Positions 1 to 60,334 of a stretch of DNA of 64,000 nucleotides are shown in pieces; positions within the stretch are counted from its first letter, which is position 1; each line of letters starts with the position of its first letter. Below the pieces are notes generated by a model, which was given only the letters and a program-made list of their open reading frames with translations, made no database searches and was not told the origin of the DNA. Origin of the DNA: Spongospora subterranea f. sp. subterranea (lineage: Eukaryota). Made by a program: the position numbers and the translations under genes. Where the stretch lies: the NCBI GenBank assembly GCA_049724395.1, contig JAUGWO010000091.1, positions 186,001 to 250,000 on the forward strand. Direction: 5' to 3'.

Positions 1-226
1 AAATTTACTGCCAAGAAGATGTCGGCGGCAAAATCAATATTCGACGGTGAAGTCTGTTGATTTCGAAACATGCTGACGTTCAAACGCTCAGAGAAACATC
101 TTTGTTGTAAGATGATAGTATAACAACGCAATTATATATATTATTAATACAGTACACATTTTGCTTATATGAATCTGCATCAGCTACAGAATTCGTAATA
201 CCAATATTTTTCTGAAATAGTGAAGG

Positions 227-7416: not shown

Positions 7417-9114
7417 TTAATAAGGTCTTCTTGTTGACCGCTTCTTGCCATAATGTGGAGCGTGATACATTCGTGATGGGGGAGCCACCTCTTCTTCCTC
7501 TTCATCATCCTCAATATCGTCTGCGTCACCATATAACGATGGCATATGTTCCGGTTTCAAATCCTCAACACGGCGCCGTCGTGGTACTTTACTCCTAATC
7601 GGAGCCAGTGTAGTATTAGGGGATCCTCTCATAGGACCGGATGCCGTCTCGGCCGGGTCTTCTTCCTCGTCGCAAGCATCGTCTTCTTCTTCCACTATTA
7701 CTCTCCTCGCCTTACTTGCTCTCTTGGGTTTCCTTCTGTATGTTATAGGCTCTTCCTCTAATTCTTCGCTGCAGCTATCGTCCTCTTCTTCAGCTGGTGG
7801 CTGGCGAACACGTCTAGGTAAAGGAATCACCGCTGGACGAGAAAGCGATGTCCTCGGAAGTGGTGGGATTACTGAGTAATCTCGATTGACCTGATCAGGC
7901 GATGAATGACCGGGCATTGATGCCATAGGATAAGGGATCGACGTTGCGTTAGTCGCGTTATTCTCAGGGCGCGCTTGTACAGGAGCAGGTGCCACTGATC
8001 CAGCCTTCATCTCCTCTTGCTTTACAACTCCCTTTGGCGGGGTTCTATCAGGATTGGTCGTATTATGGATGGGGGCAACCTTAGGAAATTCGACATCGAT
8101 ATCTTTGGGAGTTGACGTCGCCGACGCAGGAGTGTAACTGACGTGGGAGACATTGGCGGTGGATTTAGGGATAGCAGCCGGTGCCGGTCGAATGGCAGAT
8201 GGGGTTAGATTATTTGATGGCAAGCTTGTCAGTGGCGACATTGTAGCTTGAAGCGCCTTGGGATAAGACGTGGGGGCCTTTGGCAACATTGCAGCTGCTG
8301 GAGTGGCCACTGGTGTTTTCGGCACTGCTGGAGTTGGCCCCGTCGACGCCTTTTGTCCCGTTGGCGATGCCGACATGGGATTCGCTGGCGCCTTGGGAAC
8401 CACAGGAACTGGGGTGGCCATTGGAGTTGCTGGCATTTTTGGCGCTGCTGGAGTGACCATCGGTGGCGTTGGCGCTTTTGGAACTGGTGTATACGTTCCC
8501 GCTGGTGGGGCTGTTACCTTAGGAGCCATTGGATCAGACGTTGGTGTCGCTGGTATCTTCGAAGAACTAGCTGCTGCAGCTGGATACTGTGGAGCGTGAT
8601 TTGTGGGGAGTTGTTGAACCGATGGCGATGGTGTATAAGAAGGTGTTGGTGTCTGAGGGATGGTCGCTGGAGGATTGGCCGGCGTGACCTGTGGTTTTGG
8701 AGCCATAGGCGTGGGCGTTGGTACCTGAGTTGTCCCAACTTTTGGCGCTGGAGTAATGGTCGGCGACGCCTTGGGTGCTGGAGGTACCCGAGTTTGTGCC
8801 AGAGGAGCCACCGGAACTCCATCAACCGCAACAGATACGACGGGGGGATTTGACAATGGCGCCTTCACTGCCTGTTTCATGGGTGGGGCTTTGGTCATTG
8901 GAGGAGCGGCAGTGAATAGAGGGGTTGGAGGAGGCGTCATTAGGACGATTGGGTTGGTAGGGATAGGCAAAGGAGTCGGAGGCTGCGTCATGGTCGGTTC
9001 TGGAGTCTCTTGTCCGTCAAAGTCCTCAGCCGGCTCAATTTGAATCGTGACCTCCTGGGCGTGAACGACCATCAATAATATTGATAGACCTAAGATGATT
9101 TTCGGCCATTGCAT
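7417..9114 (-). CDS. Secreted Pro/Thr/Ala-rich mucin-like protein with acidic/basic C-terminus, intronless, 565 aa
   Basis: Long open frame. N-terminal signal peptide MQWPKIILGLSILLMVVHA|QE, extended PT/PK/PA low-complexity tract, and C-terminal EEEDD tracts with basic clusters (RRKPKRASKARR). Confidence 0.85.
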   Translation of the reverse strand: MQWPKIILGLSILLMVVHAQEVTIQIEPAEDFDGQETPEPTMTQPPTPLPIPTNPIVLMTPPPTPLFTAAPPMTKAPPMKQAVKAPLSNPPVVSVAVDGVPVAPLAQTRVPPAPKASPTITPAPKVGTTQVPTPTPMAPKPQVTPANPPATIPQTPTPSYTPSPSVQQLPTNHAPQYPAAAASSSKIPATPTSDPMAPKVTAPPAGTYTPVPKAPTPPMVTPAAPKMPATPMATPVPVVPKAPANPMSASPTGQKASTGPTPAVPKTPVATPAAAMLPKAPTSYPKALQATMSPLTSLPSNNLTPSAIRPAPAAIPKSTANVSHVSYTPASATSTPKDIDVEFPKVAPIHNTTNPDRTPPKGVVKQEEMKAGSVAPAPVQARPENNATNATSIPYPMASMPGHSSPDQVNRDYSVIPPLPRTSLSRPAVIPLPRRVRQPPAEEEDDSCSEELEEEPITYRRKPKRASKARRVIVEEEDDACDEEEDPAETASGPMRGSPNTTLAPIRSKVPRRRRVEDLKPEHMPSLYGDADDIEDDEEEEEVAPPSRMYHAPHYGKKRSTRRPY

Positions 9115-10799: not shown

Positions 10800-12610
10800 G
10801 TTTGTAATTGACCGTGACCTAAAGCGGCTTCGGAATTCAAGGCCATACCGTTGGGTAAATCCCCTGGCAACGAATCTCGCCTCAAATGTGGGATGACCGT
10901 TGTCCATCATTTTGGTAAAAACCCATTTTTCCTCGTATTGGCTTGAGTCCTTCGGGAATAGAGTCTACTACAGTGTCCATGTACCATTGTCCGAGTGCGC
11001 TTTCATCTTTGTGGCAGCGGCTTGCATCCAAAAGGCTGAATCTGGGCAATGCAAAGCGTCTTTGTAGGTATTGGGAAACATCCTATTGTGTTGTGGCATA
11101 ATTGCTGTACTGTTCGTTACTGAGCGTCAATGGACCCTGATCGTCAGTGGGTTCAGGTGGGCGCTGTCGCGGTAAAGATGATTCGTCAAACGTCATGTCG
11201 CGACAAACAAACATTTGTTTATCGTTATCGCGCATCACCCTTTGGAGTATTGGGAATATCCAACAAACATATCTGGTTCCGCAGTGGGATCGAGAGAGGT
11301 TTTCAATGATGAAGAATATGCGACGCATCTGAAGGTTCGCATATGTCGCACATCCGGTTTGATGTCGCACCATAGTTCATGAGGTGCCCTCCATTGGATC
11401 AATTTTGTTGGTAATCTGTTCTGTGTATAAACAGCATAGCACACGGCGAATATCCAGAATTCTGGTCGGAGACCGGCATCAAATAGGATCGTTCTCGCCA
11501 TGGTTATTATCGTCAGGTTTCGTCGTTCTGCTGTTCCGTTTTGTTGAGGGCTGTACGGTGCAGTACGCTGGCGTTTGATTCCTTAGTAGAAAATCACTAA
11601 CCGTCTTGTTGACGTATTCTCCTCCGTTGTCTGTTAACAGTATGCTCAAGCGTTCTTTGGTTCCTGACTTCCATCGACTAGGAATCGTTCAATAATTTTC
11701 TTGACTTCTTCGGGTGATTTGGATTGTTACCCAGCACCATTTCGAATAAAGGCAGTTGTATGTGATTATATTACTGTTATCCTTGACTCGTCGTTAGTAA
11801 GGATCCTTCAAATCAGACCTCAATATTTCGAATTTTCTTGTCGGTTTGGTTGTTCGTTCGTGTGGAAATGGCTGGCGTCGGGCCTAAAGTGCAACCACTA
11901 CATGGTGGTCGTTCGTCAATCAGTATATCTATGCCATCGCAGTGTTCGGGTAGTTTTCTCAATCTCTCGTCGCGTGTCCAAATTCTCTTGTGCACGTTTT
12001 GTAAGTTGATTTTCGCTCCCGATGTTGTTGAATGTGCTTCATATTCTTTGATTGGCTTCAAGTAGTAGCACTTCCCGTTAAAACGTGGAGATTCTGTTTG
12101 ATACTTATCTGGTACCCTTGGGTAGTTAGAGAGTTTGTGGCGAGCAAAGTTTCCATAATCTTTGGAACATGGACAGCGTCCGGTATTTGATATCGGTGGA
12201 GATCTCAACAACGTCAGCGTTCCTTTGCCTATTGCATGAAGGGTTCCACCATTACTTGCGGTAACTGGGGATGGCTTCTTTAATGTTTGATATTTGGTGA
12301 GAAGATGTTTGTCCAGGGTCATGCTACCATTTGCAACGCTGTCAACGATCATTGTGGTTTTTGTAATTCTGGGTGAGCAAACCAACACTGATCGATTTCG
12401 TGGTTTGTTATCTTGCATTTCGCACATGGTTTGTTTTTCTTTGGTTGTCCTTCCATCTTTTTGCCTCGATGTTTAGGATTTTATGTCTCAATCGTGATTC
12501 TCGTCGGCTGTTTCGTATCAATTCATCGATGAGTTGTTGTTCACTAGACAGTAGTAGGTTTGTCAGCCGGGGAATCGTTGTCACTTGGGCTGTTCTGCCG
12601 GCCGCCATGA
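10800..12610 (-). mobile_element. Degenerate Ty1/copia fragment (gag end, protease, integrase, start of RT)
   Basis: Gag end AAGRTAQVTTIPRLTNLLL; protease-like MIVDSVANGSM; integrase LTDNGGEYVN, QNGTAER and MARTILFDAGL..FWIFAV..AVYTQNRLPT; RT start ..RGKMGF. Many frameshifts and stops. Confidence 0.85.
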
Positions 12611-12619
12611 TCTGCCTGT

Positions 12620-14165
12620 ATGGTTCCGGTAATGATCGTTGACAGCGTTACAAATGGTAGCATGACCCAGGACAAACATCTTCTCACCAAATATCAAACA
12701 TCGAAGAGGCCATTCCCAGTTACCGCAAGTAATGGTGGAACCCTTCATGCAATAGGCAAAGGGACGCTGACGTTGTCGAGATCTCCATCAATATCAAATA
12801 CCGGACGTTGTCCATGTTCCAAAGCTTACGCGCCACAAACTCTCTAACTACTCAAGGGTATCAGATAAGTGTCAAACAGAATCTCCACGTTTTAACGGGA
12901 AGTGGGGAAATCGTACTGACTGCTTACAACCACAAGGCCTCTACTACTTGAAGCCAATCACAGAATATGAAGCACATTCAACAACATCGAGAGCGAAAAT
13001 CCATCAACTTACAAAATGCGCACAAGAGGTTTGGACACGCTTGCGATGAGAGATTGAAAAACTTACCCGAACATCGTGATGGCATAGACGTACTGATTGA
13101 CGAACGACCGCCATGTAGTGGTTTTGCTTTAGGCCAAGCCCGACGACACACGAACAGTACAGCAATTACCACACAACACAATCGGATGTTCCCAATCCCT
13201 ATAAACACGCTTTGCATTGCCCCGATTCAGCCTTTTAGAAGCAATCCGCTACCACAGAGATGAAAGCACACTCAGACAATGGTACATGGATACTATTAGA
13301 CTCTATTCCCGAAGGACACAGGCCAATACGAGGAAAAATGGTGTTTTACCAAAAATATGGACAACAATCCATCCGCATTTAAGTTGGAATTCGTTGCCAG
13401 GGGCTTTAACTAACGGTATGGCCTTGATTATACCGACTCATTCGTGTTAACTTACACATTTATGCGATTCATCGTGAGCCTTGCATCGAAACGCCAATGG
13501 CCACTATCACACAGGGACCTTCGAACGGCGTATTTAAACGCACAACGGCTGGAACCCATTTACATGACCCAGCCAGAGGGATTCGTTCATCCAGGGGCAG
13601 AGAACAAAGTTTGCATTTCTGAACAAAGCCCTATATGGATTTGAACAAGCAAGCCGTGCATGGCAAACAACCCTGTTTAAGACACTGAAAGACAGTCACT
13701 TACAACAGACCGCTTACGAGCCTGGTATATGGTATCGTACATCGGGACAATTGGTCACCATTTAGGAATTTATGTTGATGATTTACTGTTCACCGGAGAT
13801 GATAAAGTAAGATCGCAGAAAACAATCAAATTGTATATTCAACATACAGAATAAAGGACCTCGGAGAAGTAAAACCTTGGGAATCGAAATCCTACACCAA
13901 GACGCCAACTCAATCATAACTCAACGTACATACATCCAACAGCTCCTAGCACGCTTGCAAACCCAACTCATACCAGCGACAGGTTGTAAGATTACAGACG
14001 ACAACATCGTGCGAACACCTATCCCATTAGAAAAGCTTTAGGAGCACATGTTCGCGACACGACCAGATTTAGCTTACATCGTTAACAACCTGAGTCGATC
14101 CGTGTCGAAACCAACAACACAAGTCTGGAGGAACGTCCAACGTATATTTAAGAACTGAAGGAGCG
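12620..14165 (+). mobile_element. Degenerate Ty1/copia fragment, integrase deleted (protease, GAG-pre-integrase, RT); inverted relative to its left neighbour
   Basis: MIVDSVTNGSM; HKRFGHA..C; RT motifs DLRTAYLNA..IYMTQPEGF, KALYG and GIYVDDLL; TRPDLAY. Nucleotides 12632-12900 are a close reverse complement of ~12080-12353. Confidence 0.85.
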
Positions 14166-17100
14166 ACTAACTACGGGCTAATGTTCGGCAGGCCTGATCA
14201 GACAATCGCCTGTTATGCCGAGGATGTCTGCTAACATATGCTCGGCTGGACAATAGATAACATTGATCCGCCCTTCCTGTGTCTTCTCATGAATAAAGTG
14301 ATGCCGTATATCGTTATGTTTAATTCGCGACTTGTTGGAAGTGTTCTTCTCAAAGAAAATAGCACCTTGATTATCTTGATGTAGAGTCGCCTGTTTCTTG
14401 GTAATAATTCCAAGTTCATGTAATAAATCATGTAACCATACGGCTTCCTTCGTCGCATCAGAAGCTGCAATGTATTCGGCTTCTGTTGTGGGTAATGTGA
14501 CTGTGGCTTGTTTCTTGCTTTTCCAAGAAATGACGTTATGTCCAATCGAGATAATCCATCCAGTGGTCGACTTGCGATCGCATATGTCTCCAGCAAAATC
14601 GCTGTCAGCCCAACCTGTAATTTGGTGATCGCCTTGTGTGAAGGTTAGACCTAAATCTGGAGTTTCTTTCAAAGACTTGATTACTCGTTTAACGGCTTTC
14701 CATAACGATTTCGTGAGTTTGCTGAAATGTCGACTAATGTTGTTGATTGCGAATGCCAGGTCAGGTCTCGTCGCATTTGCTAAGTACGTAAGGCTTCCGA
14801 TTGCTTCACGAATTGGGTATTTGGTTATGGTAGCGTCGTCGTCTGGTGTGTAGATTTCCGACATCGGGGTTGGTGCTGGTTTGCAGTTATCTTGTCCGAA
14901 GTTGGAATATGATAGAGAGTGTGTAATCCATTTGTGTGAGGACGATCCCTTTGTCTATATATCTTGCTTGTAATCCGAGAAATCTTTGTAGTCACCTAAG
15001 TTCTTCATTTTGAAGTTGTGGCCCATAATAGTTGAGATGCTGTCGATCTCGGTCTTGTCGTTTCCTGTTAATATTAGATCATCGACGTATGTTCCGATTA
15101 TGGTTATTCCCTTGTTGTTCTTCTTGTACCATATACATGGTTCTTTCATGGATTGAATATATCCTTTGTTGCGGATCATGTCGAATAGTGGTGTCTGCCA
15201 AGCTCTACCAGCCTGTTTAAGCCATAGAGGGCTTTGTTAAGCATGCATACCTTGTGCTCGTCTCCATGCTTTATAAAGCCTTCCGGTTGTTCGATGTAGA
15301 TGGGGAGCAATAATGGTGCATTTAGGTAGGCTGCAGTAAAGTCTCGCTGGTATATCTTCCAGGTATTATTGACTGCAACACAGATGAGGATACGAACTGA
15401 TGTATGTACAAGTACCGAAGAATAGGTTCGTGATAGTCGATGCCATGTTGTTGAGAATATCCTTTCGCGACAAATCTAGCCTTGGCTGTAAGGTGATCGT
15501 TGATGTCCTTTTGCTTGGTAAAGATCCATCTTCCTTGAATCGCTTTCACGTGTCGCGACGGTCGACGAGTGTCCAAGTGTGATTATCCTTATGTGACTCC
15601 ATTTCTTTGTCTGCAGCAATTTGCCATTCATGTGCGCCTGGTCGCGTCATTGCTTCCGAGTAAGTTTTCGGATAGTCGGTCAAGGTGTGATGAATTTCGA
15701 ATCCGTGATCGTCGATGATGGTCAATGGATCGGATCCATCATTCATATCCATCGCCTCTTGCCGCAAATCCAGTATAGTGTCTTCGTCAAACTGCACGTC
15801 GCGTCTTACGATGACCGTAGCGGTGTTCGAAGGTCGAAGTATGTATCCCTTCTGGTATGGTGCATATCCTAAGAATTAGCATTTCAGTGACGTTGGTTGA
15901 AGTGCATCTCGCATAGTGGATTCAATGTGCGCATATGCTGTACATCCGAATGGTCTCAAGCGCTTGACATCGGGCTTGACGTTCATCCATAGTTCGTATG
16001 GGGTTGCCCATTCGATACGTCGAGTTGGTAGTCGATTCATGGTATAAGTTGAGTATTGGACTGCAAATGGCCAGTAACAGTAGTCAATTTTCGCCTCGAT
16101 CAGTGCACAGCGTGTCATGCTCATGATGGTTTGATTACGTCTTTCAGCTTGACCATTCTGTTAGGGCAGTGAGGCACGGTGCGTTGATGTTTGATGTTCT
16201 TTTGCAAAAGGAATGTGCTCATTAGTTGGTTGACATACTCTGATCCGTTGTCGGTTAATAAGGTAGTTAGGCGTTGTTTCGTCTCAGCTTCAGCATCATA
16301 ATAATGAACAGTTTCATCGCCTCTCAGCGCTCTTGTGCTTCAGAAACTTGACATCATGTCCAGGTTGAGTATAAGCCAGTTGAATGTAAAGTAGTATCTG
16401 TATCCTTCCTTGCTGGGAATCAGGAACGGTCCTTTAAGGTCAGAAGAAACAATTTCAACTGCCCTAGTTGGTTTTGTCCGACGTTCTTGCGGAAATGGTT
16501 GCTTCCGAGATTTCCCATGGGCACAGCTTTCGCAGAATTGTCGTTCTTGCGGTGTGATGTTGACGCCTTCGGTGGATTCTTGTAAATGCTTCAGTCTCTC
16601 ATTCGATGCGTGACCGAATCGTCGGTGCACTAGCTCCATGCTGATGGTTGCATCTCGAACGTCGTGATTTACAATGTAGTGGAGGTCGTTGTGCTTGTGC
16701 GGCCTAACGATAACCTTTCCACGTTGATTTTTGATACGAAGAGTGTCGTCAATGACTACGCTTAAACCTTGTTCGGTAAACGATTTTCGTTGCCAATAAA
16801 GTCTTGGTAATGCCAGGAACGAATAATACGTTGTCGATAACAATTAATGGTTTGCTTTGTATCGTCAGTGATCCTTGTCTGTATGCAGGTGACATCTCAC
16901 CGTTGCTGCAAGTGATCGTGATCGGTTCCAGTAGTGACCTGTAATTGTGAAGTAAGTTTAAATCATTAGTCATGCTGACGTTAGCGCCATTATCGATGAG
17001 ATATGCACTTTTGATGGAGAACGTTCTGGTGGAAGTACTGTGGAATCCTGTGAACTCCTGTTCCTTTTCGTAACACCGTGTGCAATACTTGCCGTTATTG

Positions 17101-17860
17101 TAGTTATTGCCTCTGTCGTTGTTGTTGTTATGTGACTTTTCCTTATGCCTCTTGGTTCGCTCGGTGTTAAGAGAGGTCTTTCGGCGTCGTTGATTCGAGG
17201 TCTGTTGTCAGGAGTAAATTCGGTAGTCTGGCGATCGATTTTACTTGAGATGCTCTGGCGGCTGCCTTGATTTGTTGGTATTGATCTGGCAATCCATCAA
17301 GAGCCTTGACGCATAGGGCTAGTTCGCCGACGTCGATGTTGTATACTCTCAAGTCATGGTATAGTTCTACCATTTTGTCCAGGTACCCTTTCATAATCTG
17401 ATTCGGTTGCTTCTGGTGGTGTATAAACTGGAGAAATAAGCTCGCTGTCTTGGCTTCCGCTGTTTGCGCGTAGACATCGTGTAGCGTTGTCCAAATCTCA
17501 TGTGCTGTCGTACATCTTGAGATCTGAACTGAGATTGCGACAGTCTCATGCTGATTTGAGCAGATGCGAGCTGGTCGTTGCGTTGCTCGATCGTGTTGCC
17601 GCGGGTTGGCGGGTAGTGTAAGAATGAGTCGATGCCCACTATTATGAACTGGGTCTCGGTCTTGCGATTCTTTCGGTGAATTCCGGGATTAGTTTTAGTC
17701 CCGAGTTGTGTTTTGAAAGATTGACTTCTTCTTTTAACCGGTGGGTGTATGGTGTTTCCATAGCATCGTTGGTTGTGTCTGGAGTGGTGTCCTCCTTTTG
17801 TATCTCTCGTCGTGTTTTCGTTGGTTGTTCTTCTTCCCCTCGCCATAGTATTCCGAGTCG

Positions 17861-17875
17861 GTGGGACTCTTAACC
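17861..17875 (-). other. Primer-binding site GGTTAAGAGTCCCAC, complementary to tRNA-Lys(CUU) nt 26-40
   Basis: Plus strand GTGGGACTCTTAACC versus tRNA-Lys gene GTGGGACTCTTAATC (25087-25101): 14 Watson-Crick pairs plus one G:U. It lies directly between the putative LTR and the gag ATG at 17846. Confidence 0.85.
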
Positions 17876-17988
17876 TATCGACAGGTTCACCGGTTATTTG
17901 TTCAATAGAAGAAGTGATTAGACTGTATTAGGGTAACACGTAACAATATCTAGGTCCGACTGCGACTAGAAGCGTGTAGTTGCTGATA
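17876..17988 (-). repeat. Putative 113-bp 5' LTR with TATC...GATA termini
   Basis: Abuts the PBS. The minus strand reads TATCAGCA...TGTCGATA, a 4-bp terminal inverted repeat. No second copy is available in the window, so the outer boundary is inferred. Confidence 0.6.
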
Positions 17989-18001
17989 ATTTAGTGCAGT
18001 T

Positions 18002-18074
18002 GCTTGTGTGGCCCAATGGTCAAGGCGCGTGCCTACGGAGCACGAGATTCCGAGTTCGAATCTCGGCACAGGCT
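18002..18074 (+). tRNA. tRNA-Arg(ACG)
   Basis: Cloverleaf GCTTGTG/CACAGGC, anticodon arm CGTGC-CTACGGA-GCACG, T-arm CCGAG-TTCGAAT-CTCGG, T-run downstream. Confidence 0.95.
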
Positions 18075-18352
18075 AAGATTTTTGCATTCCATCAATTTTG
18101 TCTGACTGGAAGAGGTGCGAGTTCTCTCCGGAAATCAGGGGTGTCCACGGCTACGGCTAGCTACCAGGCCGCTCTATCCGGCTGGCCGGCTAAGCGAAAT
18201 TTACTGGCCGGCTATTTTCACGAACTTGCGTTTTACCGTGCGACAGTGCGGCTTGGCCGCCTTGCTTGAGTCCTTAACGCCTCTCGCGCATCGTCCGGCG
18301 CGCCAACCCATGCTGATGAGGTTGATGAATTTTTTGAATGATTTAATGAAAA

Positions 18353-19240
18353 AGGGACATAAAGTTGAGTTACAGGACGGAGAGCAGGGACATAAAGTTG
18401 AGTTACAGGACGGAGAGCAGGGACATAAAGTTGTCGTTACAGGACGGAGCAGGGACATAAAGTTGAGTTACAGGACGGAGAGCAGGGACATAAAGTTGTC
18501 GTTACAGGACGGAGCAGGGTCATAAAGTTATCGTTACAGGACGGAGAGCAGGGACATAAAGTTGTCGTTACAGGACGGAGCAGGGTCATAAAGTTATCGT
18601 TACAGGACGGAGAGCAGGGACATAAAGTTGTCGTTACAGGACGGAGCAGGGACATAAAGTTATCGTTACAGGACGGAGAGCAGGGACATAAAGTTGTCGT
18701 TACAGGACGGAGCAGGGTCATAAAGTTATCGTTACAGGACGGAGAGCAGGGACATAAAGTTGTCGTTACAGGACGGAGCAGGGTCATAAAGTTATCGTTA
18801 CAGGACGGAGAGCAGGGACATAAAGTTGTCGTTACAGGACGGAGCAGGGACATAAAGTTATCGTTACAGGACGGAGAGCAGGGACATAAAGTTGTCGTTA
18901 CAGGACGGAGCAGGGTCATAAAGTTATCGTTACAGGACGGAGAGCAGGGACATAAAGTTGTCGTTACAGGACGGAGCAGGGTCATAAAGTTATCGTTACA
19001 GGACGGAGAGCAGGGACATAAAGTTGTCGTTACAGGACGGAGCAGGGTCATAAAGTTATCGTTACAGGACGGAGAGCAGGGACATAAAGTTGTCGTTACA
19101 GGACGGAGCAGGGACATAAAGTTATCGTTACAGGACGGAGAGCAGGGACATAAAGTTGTCGTTACAGGACGGAGCAGGGACATAAAGTTATCGTTACAGG
19201 ACGGAGAGCAGGGACATAAAGTTGTCGTTACAGGACGGAG
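18353..19240. repeat. Minisatellite: 33-bp starter units, then alternating 32- and 34-bp monomers (66-bp higher-order repeat, about 11-12 dimers)
   Basis: Monomers are agggacataaagttgtcgttacaggacggagc (32) and aggg[t/a]cataaagttatcgttacaggacggagagc (34). Confidence 0.97.
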
Positions 19241-19869
19241 AACACAGAGGGCTGTACAGAAGGCCAAACATAATTATTCGTGATACGGTATGATTCGAAT
19301 GGGATACGAAGTCGTTTGGCAACAAGCGGCGAAGCGGGATGATGGGTTCGAGAGATATATCCCAACGCTTTCCTACCGCTGACCAAACGTCTTGAAAATC
19401 AAGGAATGAGCTCTAAATGTTGAGGGCGCCATCGGGCAGACAATGGATCAAACTGGAGCCGAATGATGTCAGCGAATTTGACTAGCTCGTGAGGTAGGAC
19501 CGGCGGTACAGTCACGTTCACAAAGATCGCTGCGATTTTTTGCAGTAAGTTCAACACTGCAAACTGCAACGTTGCTGACAATTGGCGCCAAGGCCTCAGC
19601 GCCGACTGCATCCAGTGCCGTGATGACAAAGTTCCCAAGTCCTGGAGCACAGAATTGACATTCTGAACGGAACTTCAGTACAATCATTTCACTCAATAGT
19701 GGCATCGATAAGAACGCGGCCTGGTCATAAAGTTCAACAAAAATATAAGCAAATTTCAAATGGAAATATGACGACCGTCAAACAGCGATTCTTGTACCAA
19801 TCGTTCGCGTCATCAAGCTGGAGTGCATTTCAGACAACACGGTGGCTCAACACGTTACCAATATGAACT

Positions 19870-19942
19870 GCTTGTGTGGCCCAATGGTCAAGGCGCGTGC
19901 CTACGGAGCACGAGATTCCGAGTTCGAATCTCGGCACAGGCT
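19870..19942 (+). tRNA. tRNA-Arg(ACG)
   Basis: Identical to 18002-18074; followed by a T8 Pol III terminator. Confidence 0.95.
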
Positions 19943-20019
19943 GAATTTTTTTTCCAACTTGTCTCGAGTTGAGAAAAAATTGAAGTTGAACAATTGCAGC
20001 AGCGGCATTCAAAACATTT

Positions 20020-20092
20020 AGCCTGTACCGAGATTCGAACTCGGAATCTCGTGCTCCGTAGGCACGCGCCTTGACCATTGGGCCATACAAGC
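20020..20092 (-). tRNA. tRNA-Arg(ACG), A7-T66 variant
   Basis: Reverse complement of the same tRNA with a compensatory G7-C66 to A7-T66 acceptor-stem change. Confidence 0.95.
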
Positions 20093-20105
20093 CTTGATGT
20101 CGGTT

Positions 20106-20667
20106 TATTGACGTGTGTCACTAAACTATCGTCGAATCTTGAAGCTGTTGGACTCTTCACCAGCCAGGGCATCGCAAGTCGAGACGATCCCTAAATTAAC
20201 GAACCTCTTAATCTCAGTCGAAAGATGCCAAGATGGGAACGACCATCATGTCTTCGAGTTTCGACAACGCGAACTCAGAAATGAGATACCGGAAATAAGC
20301 ATTTGAGCAGTATTGCCCTGTCTCCTGGTTTTTGTGTTGATTCCGGTTTTCATTTCTGAGTTCGCGTTGTCGAAACTCGAAGGCATGGAAAATCACGGAA
20401 AAATCACTGTAACAAGACAATAACCAAGCACATCGATGTCAACCATCATTTTATTCGAGAAAAGGTTGATGAAGGCCGAATACTACTCACGTATTGTCCA
20501 ACGGCAGAAATGATCGCTGACGCATTCACAGAACCCTCAACGAAAGAGTGTTAATTCGCCACATGGCAAGCATTCTAAATCATCACGATTATTTAGCTCA
20601 GGGGCGTATTGACGTTAGTCACTAAGCTAAAGTTGACAAACTCACATTAATATTATCATTCTACCAC
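20106..20667 (+). mobile_element. Internally deleted copia element: 5' LTR start, gag end, RNase H end, PPT, 3' LTR start
   Basis: TATTGACGTGTGTCACTAAACTA at 20106 resembles TATTGACGTTAGTCACTAAGCTA at 20607, which follows a PPT-like CAGGGGCG. Also ARASQVETIPKLTNLLIS (gag) and KHIDVNHHFIREKVDEGRILLTYCPTAEMIADAFT (RNase H end). Confidence 0.8.
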
Positions 20668-21470
20668 TACATTTTGCATTTTGGGCAGTATTTGCCCTGT
20701 CTCCTTGGTTTGTGTGGATTCCGAGTTCGCGTTGTCGAATTCTGTACAACCCCATAAGAAAAGGTGTCGCGAATCAGTTCGCTCTGCCAACTCGAAGGCA
20801 TCATAGTCGTTTCCATCTTGGCAGATCTTTCGGCTGATATTAAGGTAGTGCTTTCGGGCAAAGTGCCAGTTCTCCGATACTAATTTTGCCCCGTTGAGTT
20901 CGAGATACAGACCGATTAGCTTGTCGAGGTACGATTTAATGGGTTCACTGGGGTTCTTTTTGATGTGCAGGAATTGGGCAAATATTTGCTGCCTTTAGTT
21001 CTGCTGTCTCATCGTATATCCCTTCAGGCGACTCCAGATTGCGCATGTTGATTCACATTGTGAGACTTGTTTGTACTGGGCTTGCGGGAGTAGCATGCAT
21101 ATCTGAGCAGCAAATAGTTTATCATTTTCTCAGTTCATGTCGCGATGTGAGGTCTGGCAGTTCGGTCAAGTAGGATTCAATTCCCATGATGGTGAATTGG
21201 GTTTCAAGTTTCCTTTCAAACTCTTCCCAGTTCGATCCGGTGAATTTGGGTATGAGTTTCAAACCCTAGTTGTATCTGGATAGATCGATTTCTTCGGTTA
21301 ATCCCTGTGTTCTGCTTTCCTCCAATATTGCCCTTTCCTGTCGGCTTATCGTTGATGTGACTTTGCTACCTTGAACGCGCGGCTGGACTGTCATTATTAG
21401 AGCTGGTGGGACTCTTTATTTAACGGAAACAAGAGAAATATACGGAGTAGTTAGTAATGGGTGATAATAC
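20667..21470 (-). mobile_element. Copia 5' remnant (LTR 3' part, degenerate Lys PBS, gag)
   Basis: PBS-like AAAGAGTCCCAC at ~21406-21417; gag PKFTGSNWEEFERKLETQFTIMGI..AAQICM; KYCPKC knuckle; stops present. Confidence 0.8.
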
Positions 21471-21479
21471 TTGACTCTT

Positions 21480-22620
21480 CTATTATCATCTATACTAACT
21501 ACTCCATATCTCTCTCCTAATTCCGGTATTATATAGACGACCTCAACATTCATTGTTTAGGAAACATGTCATAACCATTGCAGCACAATCACGTCAAATA
21601 GTGGGATAAGAGAAGGTGTTTCGTTCGTTAGATTACGAGTCCCATCTCCTCAAGAAGATCGCACAAGCACGACGAGAAAATGGATGGGACACCTCCCCCG
21701 AAGCGATCATCAGGCTCGAGTAACGAGACCTTAACGACCGCAAGTGACACGAGATGATGAATATTTGACAAACACATCCTATCAAGAAACGGAGAGTTAT
21801 TGATGACAGCATCTAAGATGTATGGCCTCTACTATTACAAGTGCACGATGGAAACACATTAGTGATGCATGAGAAGGGACGATTTCACTCTGAAGAGACT
21901 TGACATTCGATGAATCAAAAATATCAAGTCTAAAAGGCATGTCGACGAAACAGAACCTGATTCAATTGCAATCAATTGCGAGCTATACAACATGTTGAGC
22001 GCAGTGGCATACCCAAGGAAGTACAGCACAACTGACAACGACATTCGAAACGGCAATGAAGTCCTCAACATAATGGCGGCACTCAACCCGTGCCGAATGC
22101 AAGCACATCACGAGTACAACACTGGACAATAGTACACATTTAACGGGGCCGCAACATGATGAAAAGAAACTACAAAGAAAATTGTGAACAGAGCAGAAAA
22201 ATGAAAGTCACGATACGTCGCAAAGCCAGAAGGATTCGTTCAGCATAAGCGGAGAACAAAGTTTGCATTCTGAATACCTGACAAGAAACCCTGTTCAAGA
22301 CACTGAAAGACTGCCCCTTACAAACAGATGAATGAACCATGTATCTAGCATTACAACAAACTTCCACTATCATAATTGAAGTTTACGTTGATGATTTGAT
22401 AATAACCGGGACGATAATTCAACGATCACCGAAAAAAAGTCGATCAATTTAAAAACCAGAAATATTGGACAAGCAGAAACAAATCACACAAGGCGAACAA
22501 AAGCGAACACAGTCGCACTTCAATATTTGTCAGAAGAGCCTCATGCGCTTGGCAAGATCGTCTTTACGAAAGACAGAGACTATTTATATTGACACAGAGA
22601 CCTCTGAACCCAACGAGCAA
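21480..22620 (+). mobile_element. Highly degenerate copia remnant (LTR part, Lys PBS, scattered pol pieces)
   Basis: GATTACGAGTCCCA at 21631-21644 is 13/14 complementary to the tRNA-Lys anticodon arm. The segment at 22250-22410 resembles RT sequence at 13600-13800 and includes VYVDDLII. Confidence 0.7.
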
Positions 22621-22746
22621 CTAGTAAGATAATAAAAGGTGAGTGTTGGCAGAAATCCGCTATTAAGTCATCAAAATGAATGACTGTATCATCTAATGAT
22701 GTCTATAATCCTTTCATTATCGTCCACTCTGAGATATAAAGATGCG

Positions 22747-23165
22747 ATGGCAAGAAGGACCAGCACGAAACAATCGCTGTCAGCCGACGACAAACTGTCA
22801 ATTCAAAAGATAATCAAATCCATCTCGAAACAGCCCCCATATTTTGATCAGTCTCATGCGATAGTGCTTGGAATAACTCAAGAAGTCAACCTATCCCTAT
22901 CACATTACGACACTGGCATACCCATCCCTTAATTCAACGGATCGAATTGGGAAGAGGTCAGGAGGAAACTGGTAACTCGAATCACGATTATGGGAATGAA
23001 ACTTACAACACCTATCTTATCCCCCAAGAAAAGATCACGAAGTTCGAAGCGAAGCTAACTACAGCACAGATATTCATGCGCCTCACACAAGCGCAGTTGA
23101 AAACGCAGCATATTATGCACACTCCAGATTTTGGCACCGTCTGAAGGAATTCTACGACGAAACCA
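22747..23165 (+). mobile_element. Copia gag remnant
   Basis: MARRT.. start and, across frameshifts, FNGSNWEEVRRKLVTRITIMG..TAQIFMRL, homologous to the other gag copies. Confidence 0.7.
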
Positions 23166-23559
23166 CAGAATCTAAAGCATCAGACTTGTTCATTGATTCC
23201 GTGGGCGGCTAAGCGTAAGTCTTTTGAACGCAGCTTTATGATCCTACCGAAGTTCACAGAGCAGACTTTTGTGAGCGATACGCGTTGCAGTGCCACTCCC
23301 GCCCTGCTCAAACAATACTGGAGAAGATGATACTGTCATTACTCTAGTGATCGGACTGTTCAGTTCGATCAACAAACGTTTTTACGACTATATATTCGTT
23401 CTCCCTCTTCTCTCCGCTCTTCTTCCGTCCTTCTCACTCTTCTCTGTGCGCTTCTTCGTCCTTCTTCCCATCACTACAGCATATAGTTCCAGCATCTGAA
23501 ATGGTGCGGACGTGAACGCAATCTTCAATCGCTGAAAGGCGGCTTCGGCATCGGTGTTT

Positions 23560-23954: not shown

Positions 23955-24226
23955 GAATATTAAAAACACGCTGGTGCACTTGCTTTTGATCCAGTCAATT
24001 CTAGTGCATCGTTTTTTCAATCTGACAGGGGCAAAAACAGAAGATACCGCAATTGCATCACAACGAACACAGAGCGGAAGTTCAACTTGTGAAATATTGG
24101 AAACACGCTGGTGCACTTGCTTTTGATCCAGTCAATTCTAGTGGATCGTTTTTCAATCTGACAGGGGCAAAAACAGAAGATACCGCAATTGCATCACAAC
24201 GAACACGGAGCGGAAGTTCAACTTGT
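23955..24226. repeat. 136-bp tandem duplication abutting the 3' end of a tRNA-Arg gene
   Basis: 23955-24090 and 24091-24226 are near-identical (aaacacgctggtgcacttgc...ggaagttcaacttgt). Confidence 0.95.
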
Positions 24227-24299
24227 AGCCTGTACCGAGATTCGAACTCGGAATCTCGTGCTCCGTAGGCACGCGCCTTGACCATTGGGCCATACAAGC
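24227..24299 (-). tRNA. tRNA-Arg(ACG), A7-T66 variant
   Basis: Same sequence as 20020-20092. Confidence 0.95.
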
Positions 24300-25061: not shown

Positions 25062-25134
25062 GCCCGCGTAGCTCAATCGGTAGAGCGTGGGACTCTTAAT
25101 CCCAAGGCTGCGGGTTCGAGCCCCGCCGTAGGCT
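25062..25134 (+). tRNA. tRNA-Lys(CTT)
   Basis: GCCCGCG..GCTC-AATCGGTA-GAGC, TGGGA-CTCTTAA-TCCCA, GCGGG-TTCGAGC-CCCGC, CGTAGGC; T6 terminator; one C:A mismatch in the acceptor stem. Confidence 0.93.
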
Positions 25135-28315: not shown

Positions 28316-30635
28316 TGTTTCACTGTATTTCTATGTTGTCTGTGTTGGAATATGTTGACCTGTGGTTCACTAATATTAAGTAAATTAGACAGACTTCAAT
28401 GATCAGTTCATTATCGCTTATTTGTTTTACTGTATTTCTATGTTGTCTGTGTTGAAATATGTTGACCTGTGGTTCACTAATATTAAGTAAATTAGACAGA
28501 CTTCAATGATCAGTTCATTATCGCTTATTTGTTTTACTGTATTTCTATGTTGTCTGTGTTGAAATATGTTGACCTGTGGTTCACTAATATTAAGTAAATT
28601 AGACAGACTTCAATGATCAGTTCATTATCGCTTATTTGTTTTACTGTATTTCTATGTTGTCTGTGTTGAAATATGTTGACCTGTGGTTCACTAATATTAA
28701 GTAAATTAGACAGACTTCAATGATCAGTTCATTATCGCTTATTTGTTTTACTGTATTTCTATGTTGTCTGTGTTGAAATATGTTGACCTGTGGTTCACTA
28801 ATATTAAGTAAATTAGACAGACTTCAATGATCAGTTCATTATCGCTTATTTGTTTTACTGTATTTCTATGTTGTCTGTGTTGAAATATGTTGACCTGTGG
28901 TTCACTAATATTAAGTAAATTAGACAGACTTCAATGATCAGTTCATTATCGCTTATTTGTTTTACTGTATTTCTATGTTGTCTGTGTTGAAATATGTTGA
29001 CCTGTGGTTCACTAATATTAAGTAAATTAGACAGACTTCAATGATCAGTTCATTATCGCTTATTTGTTTTACTGTATTTCTATGTTGTCTGTGTTGAAAT
29101 ATGTTGACCTGTGGTTCACTAATATTAAGTAAATTAGACAGACTTCAATGATCAGTTCATTATCGCTTATTTGTTTTACTGTATTTCTATGTTGTCTGTG
29201 TTGAAATATGTTGACCTGTGGTTCACTAATATTAAGTAAATTAGACAGACTTCAATGATCAGTTCATTATCGCTTATTTGTTTTACTGTATTTCTATGTT
29301 GTCTGTGTTGAAATATGTTGACCTGTGGTTCACTAATATTAAGTAAATTAGACAGACTTCAATGATCAGTTCATTATCGCTTATTTGTTTTACTGTATTT
29401 CTATGTTGTCTGTGTTGAAATATGTTGACCTGTGGTTCACTAATATTAAGTAAATTAGACAGACTTCAATGATCATTCCCCTATCGCTTATTTGTTTTAC
29501 TGTATTTCTATGTTGTCTGTGTTGAAATATGTTGACCTGTGGTTCACTAATATTAAGTAAATTAGACAGACTTCAATGATCATTCCCCTATCGCTTATTT
29601 GTTTTACTGTATTTCTATGTTGTCATGTTGACCTGTGGTTCACTAATATTAAGTAAATTAGACAGACTTCAATGATCATTCCCCTATCGCTTATTTGTTT
29701 TACTGTATTTCTATGTTGTCTGTGTTGAAATATGTTGACCTGTGGTTCACTAATATTAAGTAAATTAGACAGACTTCAATGATCATTCCCCTATCGCTTA
29801 TTTGTTTTACTGTATTTCTATGTTGTCTGTGTTGAAATATGTTGACCTGTGGTTCACTAATATTAAGTAAATTAGACAGACTTCAATGATCAGTTCATTA
29901 TCGCTTATTTGTTTTACTGTATTTCTATGTTGTCTGTGTTGAAATATGTTGACCTGTGGTTCACTAATATTAAGTAAATTAGACAGACTTCAATGATCAG
30001 TTCATTATCGCTTATTTGTTTTACTGTATTTCTATGTTGTCTGTGTTGAAATATGTTGACCTGTGGTTCACTAATATTAAGTAAATTAGACAGACTTCAA
30101 TGATCATTCCCCTATCGCTTATTTGTTTTACTGTATTTCTATGTTGTCTGTGTTGAAATATGTTGACCTGTGGTTCACTAATATTAAGTAAATTAGACAG
30201 ACTTCAATGATCAGTTCATTATCGCTTATTTGTTTTACTGTATTTCTATGTTGTCTGTGTTGAAATATGTTGACCTGTGGTTCACTAATATTAAGTAAAT
30301 TAGACAGACTTCAATGATCATTCCCCTATCGCTTATTTGTTTTACTGTATTTCTATGTTGTCTGTGTTGAAATATGTTGACCTGTGGTTCACTAATATTA
30401 AGTAAATTAGACAGACTTCAATGATCATTCCCCTATCGCTTATTTGTTTTACTGTATTTCTATGTTGTCAAATATGTTGACCTGTGGTTCACTAATATTA
30501 AGTAAATTAGACAGACTTCAATGATCATTCCCCTATCGCTTATTTGTTTTACTGTATTTCTATGTTGTCTGTGTTGAAATCTGTGAATCTGTGGTTCACT
30601 TAAGTAAATTAGACAGACTCTTATCGCTTATTTGA
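28316..30635. repeat. AT-rich 107-bp tandem satellite, about 22 copies, two sequence variants
   Basis: Period of 107 measured from tttg at 28421, 28528, 28635 and onward. Variants are gatcagttcattatcgc and gatcattcccctatcgc; two copies have short deletions (~29625 and ~30470). Confidence 0.98.
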
Positions 30636-58552: not shown

Positions 58553-60334
58553 ATGCGGACTGAACTGCCGACATTGGAGCAGTTTTTAGTGACGGCTGGT
58601 GGCTCCACGTCCTGGGCCGACGCTGTAGATGAGCCCGAATATTACGCCGAAGATGAGATCGTTGGAGATGCTGTTGATTCCGAGCCGGAGCGCGCTCCGT
58701 TGCGTCGTAGCATGCAGACGTCTCCGCCGTTTGTTGCAGAGTGCCACAATCTGAGTTTCAAATGTAAACCTGATGATCTGGTTCGCTTTTTTGCCCCCAG
58801 CGAGATTGTCAACATCGAGATGCCTCAGGCATTTAATCGGCCTAAAGGGTTCGCGTATGTGGAGTTTGCCGACGTCGCTGGCCTTGATGCAGCCCTGAAT
58901 CGTTCAGGACAACAGCACCTTGGTCGCGTCGTTAGCATTGAAGTTTATCGGCAGCAATCTCGCCCTCCTGTCCGGTCTCATTCATCGAATGGGCCGTTGT
59001 CCCGACCGCCCTTTCATTCTCGTGGACCGGCGCCGTCCCAGGCACCTCCCGCTGAGCGGCCTAAGCTTAATTTATTGAAGCGCCAGGTAGAACCTGAGGC
59101 AGTTGCCGTCGGTATTAAGGCGTCGGCTTCGGCCTCCCAGCTTTTTGGAGGAGGTCGTACACGTGAAGAAATTCTCAAAGAAAAAGAGCAGATAGCGGAA
59201 GCAGAGAAGGCTCGCGCATTGGCGTCGCCTAAGAAATCAGAAGAAATCCGGGAAGAGCGGCGCCATGTTCCGGTTGTACAAGGTCCTCTAAGGTCCCCAC
59301 CCGCGAAATTCTCTCGACCAGTTCATGAAGTTGAGAACAAAGGCAACGACCAAAGGCGTCCGAATGTTGAAGTGTCGGAGAGTTCCAGACCGATTAACCC
59401 ATGGGGAGCTCAAGACCGCGGTTCCGACAAAGATTCGGATGCTGCCGGAGCGAGCAAATCGGCAATTCACACCCAAGGACGACCCAATCTAGAACCGGTG
59501 ACATCGAATACTTCCAGATCAAATAGACCATGGGGTCAGCAAGAGACTCGCCCTACTTCCGTTCGTTCCAATGAGGATAAAGGTTCCGACCCGTCAAGGC
59601 AGAATAGTAGGCCTTCGAACGAGCATCAAAACCGCGACAACAATTCGCGCGGGAATCGAGACCATGAATCATCATCTGGGAACTCCCGACCGATTAAGCA
59701 ATGGACAACACAGCAGGGCCATCATGGTCATTCCCGACACAATCACGATGAAGATCCTAGGAGAAATCATAACGGGAAGCCAGGCAACAGTAATGATCAC
59801 TCAAAACCGCTTTCCAAACCTGTTCGTGGCCCCAGGAATTTACATTGGGAGCCTAGACAACCTGCTGAACAGAAATCCGCTCAAACGTCTACTGACCAGC
59901 ATCCGTCGGAAACGCCCAAGGATGACGAACCGAATCGTGCTTTAGTTCAGGTTCAGAGCCTTAGTATTCCGTCAACGCCGGTATCGCAGCCAGAACAAAA
60001 ATCGCCGTCTCCAAGAGCAGCGCCGTCGCGGAAACCGTCCTCATCACCGAAGAAGACGCAAGACGTAGTGGAATCACCGACGAAGTCTGCAAACACACCT
60101 CGTTCTGTCGAAGATCAACCATCAGGTGATCCGTCAGGTTTTGAAACGAGTCGTCGTGGTAAAGGTCGCCGCCCTAAGCGATCGACGATTCCTACACGTT
60201 CAGCTACACCGACAGTTGAATCGAACCGTGGTCGACGTCCTTTCTCCCCCACCGAGTTCAACTTACCGCCGTCCTCAGTGTCATTCTCCACCAACCCGTA
60301 CGCTGGTTTAGCTACGTCTGACGACGATGAATAA
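58553..60334 (+). CDS. RRM protein, eIF4B/eIF4H-like, with long disordered C-terminus (intronless, 593 aa)
   Basis: SWADAVD; PPFVA..NLSF; RNP1 KGFAYVEF; ERPKLNLLKR; LFGGGRTREE, a motif set typical of eIF4B/4H. Confidence 0.8.
   Translation: MRTELPTLEQFLVTAGGSTSWADAVDEPEYYAEDEIVGDAVDSEPERAPLRRSMQTSPPFVAECHNLSFKCKPDDLVRFFAPSEIVNIEMPQAFNRPKGFAYVEFADVAGLDAALNRSGQQHLGRVVSIEVYRQQSRPPVRSHSSNGPLSRPPFHSRGPAPSQAPPAERPKLNLLKRQVEPEAVAVGIKASASASQLFGGGRTREEILKEKEQIAEAEKARALASPKKSEEIREERRHVPVVQGPLRSPPAKFSRPVHEVENKGNDQRRPNVEVSESSRPINPWGAQDRGSDKDSDAAGASKSAIHTQGRPNLEPVTSNTSRSNRPWGQQETRPTSVRSNEDKGSDPSRQNSRPSNEHQNRDNNSRGNRDHESSSGNSRPIKQWTTQQGHHGHSRHNHDEDPRRNHNGKPGNSNDHSKPLSKPVRGPRNLHWEPRQPAEQKSAQTSTDQHPSETPKDDEPNRALVQVQSLSIPSTPVSQPEQKSPSPRAAPSRKPSSSPKKTQDVVESPTKSANTPRSVEDQPSGDPSGFETSRRGKGRRPKRSTIPTRSATPTVESNRGRRPFSPTEFNLPPSSVSFSTNPYAGLATSDDDE

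What the first reader, a model, noticed from the sequence alone, without database searches (positions are those of the whole stretch)
17876..20130. Copia LTR retrotransposons inserted exactly 13 bp upstream of tRNA genes (Ty3-like Pol III targeting in a Ty1/copia lineage)
Seen: the near-complete copia element's LTR begins (minus strand TATC) at 17988 and tRNA-Arg starts at 18002, a 13-bp gap. A second element with a different LTR sequence begins TATTGACG at 20106 and the minus-strand tRNA-Arg starts at 20092, again a 13-bp gap. The second boundary is independently anchored by the same TATTGACG motif after the PPT at 20607. In both cases the 5' LTR faces the tRNA 5' end, in divergent orientation, and the two 13-bp spacers are unrelated in sequence, so they are not one duplicated event. 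Established: position-specific insertion near the Pol III start site is known for gypsy-type Ty3 and Dictyostelium DGLT-A, whereas copia-type Ty1 uses a broad nucleosome-phased upstream window. Inference: this is a copia family that convergently evolved precise TFIIIB/Pol III-tethered integration, a safe-harbour strategy in a gene-dense genome.
Basis: partly seen in the sequence, partly recalled or inferred. Interest (0 to 1): 0.9.

Follow-up and report, generated by a model that had tools for sequence, protein, structure and literature searches.

The report
Copia retrotransposons parked beside tRNA genes
Two different copia-type jumping genes in the potato powdery-scab protist each begin 13 bases in front of a tRNA gene, and a relative from unrelated DNA likely begins 12 bases in front of another tRNA gene, so this family likely aims at the tRNA start site with a precision that the papers I could search describe only for other retrotransposon groups.

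Summary
Observation confirmed. Both 13-bp gaps are exact. Both elements are decayed Ty1/copia copies of different families, 5' LTR head-to-head with tRNA-Arg(ACG); a gag remnant fixes the second element's orientation. A window protein is identical to a Spongospora subterranea protein. Independent support: of 73 matches to the element's primer-binding motif, 3 were copia; the only one in the same clade (L022, gag 54% identical) has a tRNA-Ala gene 12 bp from its inferred LTR start, same orientation. 45 unrelated copia loci held no tRNA (weak control). The clade is well supported and has an unusually short integrase tail, so Ty1's tether is unlikely. Limits: three sites only, no target-site duplication testable, element 1's and L022's outer LTR ends are inferred, 3 of 5 window tRNAs are empty, no genome-wide test, tethering untested. 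Nine paper searches found no position-specific copia. This scan noted tRNA-adjacent LTR elements in fungi before, none of this clade. Verdict: likely Ty3/DGLT-A-like targeting in a copia clade; new variant of a known kind.

The parts
17876..17988 (-). 5' LTR of element 1, 113 bp, TATC...GATA ends
   Evidence: inner end fixed by the PBS; outer end inferred from the 4-bp terminal inverted repeat and clade LTR starts
17861..17875 (-). primer-binding site complementary to positions 26-40 (anticodon arm) of tRNA-Lys(CTT)
   Evidence: 14 of 15 exact, 15 of 15 with one G-U pair, against the window's tRNA-Lys
14220..17794 (-). decayed gag-pol of element 1 in the order gag, protease, integrase, SH3, RT, RNase H; several stops and frameshifts; 3' LTR missing
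   Evidence: Pfam PF14223, PF22936, PF13976, PF25597, PF07727; tblastn
17989..18001 (.). 13-bp spacer, site 1
18002..18074 (+). tRNA-Arg(ACG), target of element 1
20020..20092 (-). tRNA-Arg(ACG), target of element 2
20093..20105 (.). 13-bp spacer, site 2
20106..20156 (+). start of the 5' LTR of element 2 (TATTGACG...), cut short by a deletion into gag
   Evidence: 23 of 30 match to the LTR start at 20607
20157..20225 (+). gag C-terminal remnant of element 2
   Evidence: tblastn E 0.002 and shuffle test
20396..20548 (+). RNase H end of element 2
20595..20606 (+). polypurine-tract-like stretch
   Evidence: sequence
20607..20675 (+). start of a 3' LTR (TATTGACG...), truncated; right end approximate
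20680..21420 (-). element 3: PBS remnant (21420 down) and decayed gag; its LTR (21421 up) has no tRNA next to it
21631..22413 (+). element 4: PBS remnant and RT fragments
22644..23203 (+). LTR-like stretch behind a purine tract (inferred), then a further gag remnant
12635..14155 (+). older copia piece (protease to RT/RNase H) abutting element 1
10815..12635 (-). older copia piece (gag end to RT start)
19870..19942 (+). tRNA-Arg(ACG) without an LTR upstream
24227..24299 (-). tRNA-Arg(ACG) without an LTR upstream
25062..25134 (+). tRNA-Lys(CTT): the likely primer species; no LTR upstream

Best explanation
These are decayed copies of two families of one Ty1/copia clade whose LTR ends lie 13 bases in front of tRNA genes, and whose integration complex likely docks on the RNA polymerase III initiation machinery and would cut the DNA at about the tRNA transcription start site. 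Shown: copia domain order, an anticodon-arm tRNA-Lys primer site, two 13-bp gaps in the window, head-to-head orientation, and a clade relative head-to-head with a different tRNA. Inferred: the 12-bp gap in the relative (LTR start read from the clade's LTR-start pattern); priming by a 5' half of tRNA-Lys; repeated insertion at the same tRNA genes pushing older copies outward, giving the two heaps of copia debris on the upstream sides of the two tRNAs. Untested: the tether. TFIIIB or TFIIIC is likely, by analogy with Ty3 and DGLT-A at the same distance; Ty1's route (a long integrase tail binding Pol III subunit AC40, insertion on nucleosomes) is less likely because the tail is nearly absent here.
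For: Gaps 13 and 13. L022: tRNA-Ala(CGC) 44-117 (-), LTR from 130, PBS 15 of 15, gag 54% identical to element 1 and 64% to P0128; it is the only clade member among 73 motif matches, so 1 of 1 testable relatives is next to a tRNA. The two out-of-clade copia matches (L040, L060) and 45 further out-of-clade copia loci (196,812 bases) hold no tRNA. All copia homology found in the 64 kb lies in 10815-17794 and 20157-23203, upstream of the two tRNAs. Clade of 18 of 91 tree rows at 100/99 support. 12 of 19 clade proteins end in Cys straight after the purine-tract codons, and P0132 reads EGAYQ there, which fits LTR starts of the forms TGT-stop and TAT-CAR seen at L022 and 17988 (inference from protein to DNA). 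Stretch between SH3 and RT: 34-44 aa in 4 of 4 clade polyproteins, 66-295 aa in 48 of 48 others measured. [quoted passage not shown]
Against: Three sites only; two were picked because they matched. No target-site duplication can be checked (both window elements have lost their far end). Element 1's outer end has a rival at 17948, where an inner stretch resembles the element 2 start (2 of 300 shuffles as high); that would make the gap 53 bp. L022's LTR does not align significantly to element 1's (65 of 300 shuffles as high), its start is inferred, and its contig leaves gag homology at 869 and may be chimeric there. 3 of 5 tRNA genes in the window are empty, and the 5' ends of elements 3, 4 and the 22644 piece have no tRNA next to them. 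The 45-locus control is weak, since many of these contigs end inside the element.
Confidence: 0.72

Rival explanations
1. The clade prefers Pol III gene upstream regions broadly, as Ty1 does (up to about 1 kb), and 12-13 bp is only the closest of several allowed positions.
For: Copia debris extends 3-7 kb upstream of both tRNAs, on both strands, with LTR ends not next to a tRNA. Ty1, Ty2 and Ty4 use a 1-kb window (PMC5911963 Table 1, passage).
Against: All three tRNA-proximal ends fall within 1 base of each other; Ty1 inserts on nucleosomes with a periodic profile and needs integrase residues 578-635 (PMC7459421, passages), whereas this clade has a 34-44 aa tail.
Confidence: 0.16
2. Chance: a repeat-rich genome, a tRNA cluster inside a copia heap, and LTR ends chosen to fit.
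For: The species is listed with 27.4% repeats (PMC13746701, passage); 355, 176 and 81 contigs of three runs lay on element 1, most under 99% alike, so the family is multi-copy; two of the three outer LTR ends are inferred.
Against: P about 1e-5 to 2e-4 for the window pair. L022 was found blind to tRNAs and has one, in the predicted orientation, within its 257 bases upstream of the PBS, against 0 tRNAs in 196,812 bases of other copia loci. The 20106 end is anchored by the 20607 copy.
Confidence: 0.07
3. Selection, not targeting: elements inserted anywhere upstream, and later deletions trimmed the gap until they met the shortest flank that the tRNA gene tolerates.
For: Both window elements carry large deletions and inversions.
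Against: Deletions would have to stop exactly at the LTR's first base three times; the TATC and TATTGACG termini are intact.
Confidence: 0.05

Closest known systems
DGLT-A of Dictyostelium discoideum (Ty3/gypsy)
   Same: [quoted passage not shown]
   Different: Gypsy order RT-RH-IN; here IN precedes RT. DGLT-A inserts in either orientation (PMC5911963) and binds TFIIIC Tfc4 through RNase H and an integrase N-terminal extension; untested here. Host is an amoebozoan, here a rhizarian.
Ty3 of Saccharomyces cerevisiae, Tj1, beta/Tca8 and the Yarrowia elements (Ty3/gypsy)
   Same: Insertion at the Pol III start site, about 15 bp before the mature tRNA (PMC5006619, PMC5911963 Table 1, passages).
   Different: Other superfamily; tethered by integrase-TFIIIB contact, which is untested here; gap here 12-13 bp.
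Ty1, Ty2, Ty4 of S. cerevisiae (Ty1/copia)
   Same: Copia domain order; association with tRNA gene upstream regions.
   Different: 1-kb window with nucleosome-phased sites and a targeting motif in integrase residues 578-635 (PMC7459421, passages); here a near-fixed distance and a 34-44 aa stretch between SH3 and RT. No Ty1 sequence was in my tree.
FunCo1 fungal copia clade, Ty5 and Drosophila copia (anticodon-arm priming)
   Same: FunCo1 has a PBS ATTAAGAGTCT complementary to an inner part of tRNA-Lys (PMC5445492, passage); anticodon-loop priming is known for Ty5 and copia (PMC10886601, passage). The PBS here is of that kind.
   Different: No tRNA-gene targeting is mentioned in the passages I read; membership of FunCo1 not tested (no labelled FunCo1 sequence available).

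Membership tests
Ty1/copia (Pseudoviridae) | domain order gag-protease-integrase-RT-RNase H | tested here: met
Ty1/copia (Pseudoviridae) | copia-type gag and RT profiles (PF14223, PF07727) | tested here: met
   both above the curated cut-offs
Ty1/copia (Pseudoviridae) | PBS behind the 5' LTR, purine tract before the 3' LTR | tested here: met
   PBS in element 1, purine tract in element 2; no single copy has both
Ty1/copia (Pseudoviridae) | paired LTRs with a target-site duplication | tested here: inconclusive
   element 1 has no 3' LTR; element 2's 3' LTR is truncated
Ty3/gypsy (Metaviridae) | integrase after RT-RNase H | tested here: not met
Position-specific tRNA-upstream targeters (Ty3/DGLT-A behaviour) | several independent copies at a similar distance from tRNA genes (criterion of PMC5006619) | tested here: met
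   13, 13 and 12 bp; three elements, two isoacceptors, two sources; minimal sample
Position-specific tRNA-upstream targeters (Ty3/DGLT-A behaviour) | most genomic copies in the narrow window | not testable with these tools
   no genome held; flanks of other copies not obtained
Position-specific tRNA-upstream targeters (Ty3/DGLT-A behaviour) | element protein binds TFIIIB or TFIIIC | not testable with these tools
Ty1-type Pol III targeting | long integrase C-terminal region bearing the AC40-binding motif | tested here: not met
   by length only: 34-44 aa between SH3 and RT in 4 of 4 clade proteins; no motif search with Ty1 itself
FunCo1 clade | RT/RNase H grouping with FunCo1 references | not tested
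   no labelled references; the tree holds mostly unnamed hits

The most novel reading that the evidence does not exclude
A whole Ty1/copia clade of plasmodiophorid protists has evolved Ty3-grade, base-precise and U3-first integration at Pol III start sites, the first in the copia superfamily and the first tRNA targeting in Rhizaria, using a tether outside the integrase tail (candidates: the clade-specific basic residues between zinc finger and catalytic core, or the short DP(L) linker motif).
Probability: 0.5. Interest if true: 0.85.

Novelty: new variant of a known kind. Interest (0 to 1): 0.72.

Why it matters
In the review table I read, every LTR element with a narrow tRNA-upstream window is Ty3/gypsy and every copia element uses a broad one (PMC5911963 Table 1). 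A copia clade at 12-13 bp would be a further independent invention of start-site targeting, in a third eukaryotic supergroup, by an integrase that lacks the long tail Ty1 uses. It would make testable whether the same DNA position is reached through TFIIIB, TFIIIC or something new, and intact natural polyproteins of the clade exist (P0125, P0128, P0130). A compact, position-specific integrase is also of interest as a safe-harbour insertion tool.

Tried and rejected
No whole genome is held, so no genome-wide mapping. Laying contigs of three runs on 13400-18320 showed a multi-copy family but listed only 18 of 224 loose ends, none at an LTR end; flanks of other copies stayed out of reach. Viral contigs: 3 motif matches, none copia; two protein scans found no relative. 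Prokaryote genome contigs: 45 copia-bearing contigs, none in the clade (44 of 45 score better on out-of-clade proteins, the other is a near tie at 38% identity). 70 of 73 motif matches showed no copia sequence in tblastn of all 73 or in Pfam on 100 downstream frames. Rejected reading 1: that 20106 is the 3' end of an inverted LTR with a PBS at 20161 and that the 20607 LTR runs to about 20843 (my notes 1 and 2); one search showed 20157-20225 is gag on the + strand and 20680-20850 is the gag tail of element 3. Rejected reading 2: a lost tRNA between elements 3 and 4; Rfam to E 5 found none. No LTR-like match within 400 bases upstream of the three other tRNAs. ESM Atlas gave only eIF4B/RRM for the host protein. 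No structure or complex was predicted: no host TFIIIB/TFIIIC sequence was at hand. The Spongospora draft-genome paper PMC6443038 is not held.

Full report
Host. No genome is held. The single-exon protein at 58553-60334 is 100% identical over 593 aa to P0249, which its sources label Spongospora subterranea, a plasmodiophorid (Rhizaria). A table in PMC13746701 (passage) lists 31.5 Mb and 27.4% repeats for the species.

Observation. Rfam and ARAGORN find five tRNA genes: Arg(ACG) at 18002-18074 (+), 19870-19942 (+), 20020-20092 (-), 24227-24299 (-) and Lys(CTT) at 25062-25134 (+).

Site 1. The minus strand from 17988 gives a 113-bp LTR with TATC...GATA ends, then a primer-binding site complementary to positions 26-40 of the window's tRNA-Lys (14 of 15, 15 with G-U), then gag, protease, integrase, SH3, RT and RNase H in copia order, broken by stops and frameshifts. 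The 3' LTR is gone: RNase H abuts another copia piece on the opposite strand near 14200. The outer LTR end is therefore inferred. For 17988: the terminal inverted repeat; a length near those of L022 (128 bp) and L060 (134 bp); and clade proteins whose last codons run through the purine tract into the LTR, with P0132 reading EGAYQ, which fits a TAT-CAR start. Against: an inner stretch at 17948 resembles the element 2 start (2 of 300 shuffles as high). One contig of run X3 spans 17900-18140 without a difference.

Site 2. TATTGACG at 20106 matches the LTR start at 20607 (23 of 30; 0 of 300 shuffles), which follows an RNase H end and a purine tract. Elements 1 and 2 differ in LTR and in the shared gag stretch: two families, two events. 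No target-site duplication can be tested at either site.

Surroundings. All copia homology that tblastn found in the 64 kb lies in 10815-17794 and 20157-23203, on the upstream sides of these two tRNAs, in at least seven pieces on both strands. This fits repeated insertion at the same targets (inference), but also general heaping of repeats. Three tRNAs have no LTR within 400 bases, and no tRNA remnant lies beside the other 5' ends.

Independent test. I scanned viral and metagenome contigs for the LTR-end plus PBS motif: 3 and 70 matches. 3 of 73 were copia. L022 carries a gag 54% identical to element 1's over 67 aa and 64% to P0128 over 147 aa, a 15 of 15 PBS, and a tRNA-Ala(CGC) gene at 44-117 on the opposite strand (Rfam 61 bits; 8 of the 73 loci were given to Rfam, all 73 to ARAGORN). 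Its LTR most likely starts at TGTTAA (130): 12 of 19 clade proteins end in Cys-stop at that point (several are near-copies). That gives a 12-bp gap, head-to-head. Caveats: the start is inferred, the LTR does not align significantly to element 1's (65 of 300 shuffles), the search could only show 5' LTRs, and the 1,062-nt contig leaves gag homology at 869 and may be chimeric there. The other two copia matches lie outside the clade: L040 has no tRNA in 260 bases before its PBS, L060 is a head-to-tail junction. 45 out-of-clade copia contigs (196,812 bases) hold no tRNA, a weak control.

Clade. Homologue searches gave relatives at about 50-61% identity, none named to an organism, including intact polyproteins P0125, P0128, P0130. 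In a tree of the window's RT/RNase H stretch with the top 90 of 213 adequately covering hits (of 246 proteins), 18 rows form a group at 100/99 support (midpoint root, no labelled references). The catalytic D, D and E motifs of integrase are present (alignment). The stretch between the SH3 fold and RT is 34-44 aa in 4 of 4 clade proteins and 66-295 aa (median 101.5) in 48 others; 52 of 70 long proteins could be measured. It holds a DP(L) motif. Clade-only residues, several basic, lie between the zinc finger and the start of the catalytic core (P0125 positions 539-622, 6 clade rows against 66); these are leads only.

Chance. With 8 LTR ends (my estimate) and 5 tRNA genes, two or more ends in a 7-base zone have P about 1e-5 over the window and 2e-4 over the 14-kb cluster (post hoc). 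L022 was not selected for a tRNA.

Mechanism. Shown: copia anatomy, half-tRNA-type PBS, LTR ends at 13, 13 and about 12 bp. Inferred: the integration complex is positioned by the Pol III initiation complex and joins the cDNA near the start site; the start site lies about 10-12 bp before the mature tRNA in the systems reviewed (PMC5911963, PMC5006619, passages). Ty3 does this through TFIIIB, DGLT-A probably through TFIIIC Tfc4 (PMC6101501, passages). Ty1 uses integrase residues 578-635, AC40 and nucleosomes (PMC7459421, passages); the short tail here argues against that route by length alone. Confidence 0.72; rivals: broad Ty1-like window 0.16, chance 0.07, trimming by deletion 0.05.

Literature. 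I read search listings and matched passages only, no whole texts or supplements: PMC5911963, PMC5006619, PMC6101501, PMC7175516, PMC10886601, PMC5445492, PMC6823432, bioRxiv 10.64898/2026.10.14.759018 (71), PMC13746701, PMC7459421. Nine searches showed no position-specific tRNA-targeting copia and no tRNA targeting in plasmodiophorids. Repbase reports, most subscription papers and both Spongospora genome papers were out of reach, so an earlier mention is possible. The tRNA-Lys anticodon-arm PBS is already known (FunCo1, PMC5445492). Earlier notes of this scan describe LTR elements 16 and 23 bp before tRNA genes in fungi (e1-8067551, e1-9576397, unchecked); none matched this clade or place.

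Verdict. The feature is real and likely a copia clade with Ty3/DGLT-A-like targeting: it works like Ty3 or DGLT-A but is not a gypsy element. New variant of a known kind; interest 0.72.

Noticed in passing
window 18353-19240: Tandem array of a 66-bp unit (two related halves of about 33 bp), 13.5 copies, 98% matches, between the first two tRNA-Arg genes.
   Followed up: no
window 28316-30619: AT-rich tandem array of a 107-bp unit, 21.7 copies, 96% matches; possibly a satellite.
   Followed up: no
window 19870-20092: Two tRNA-Arg(ACG) genes tail to tail, 77 bp apart; the four Arg genes fall into two identical pairs (18002/19870 and 20092/24299), suggesting local duplication.
   Followed up: partly
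window 10837-13427, 20247-20387, 21421-21528: Copia pieces in inverted pairs and short fold-backs (75-94% complementary arms), suggesting inversions within the heaps.
   Followed up: partly
L060:515-760; window 22622-22760: Head-to-tail copia junctions: RNase H end or purine tract, one LTR, then PBS and/or gag, i.e. tandem elements sharing one LTR.
   Followed up: partly
L040 (minus strand): A distant, 60% GC copia with zinc knuckle uses the same tRNA-Lys anticodon-arm PBS but has no tRNA in the 260 bases held upstream.
   Followed up: partly
L074-L118: 45 contigs of prokaryote genome assemblies encode copia polyproteins, most likely eukaryotic contamination of those bins.
   Followed up: no
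window 23956-24226: 136-bp tandem duplication right downstream of tRNA-Arg 24227-24299.
   Followed up: no
window 7417-9114 (-): 565-aa proline/threonine-rich protein with a hydrophobic N-terminus, perhaps secreted.
   Followed up: no
window near 14221: Runs X1 and X2 each hold a contig that continues differently at 14221, the junction between element 1 and the older opposite-strand piece; X2 also has a contig spanning the window's form.
   Followed up: no
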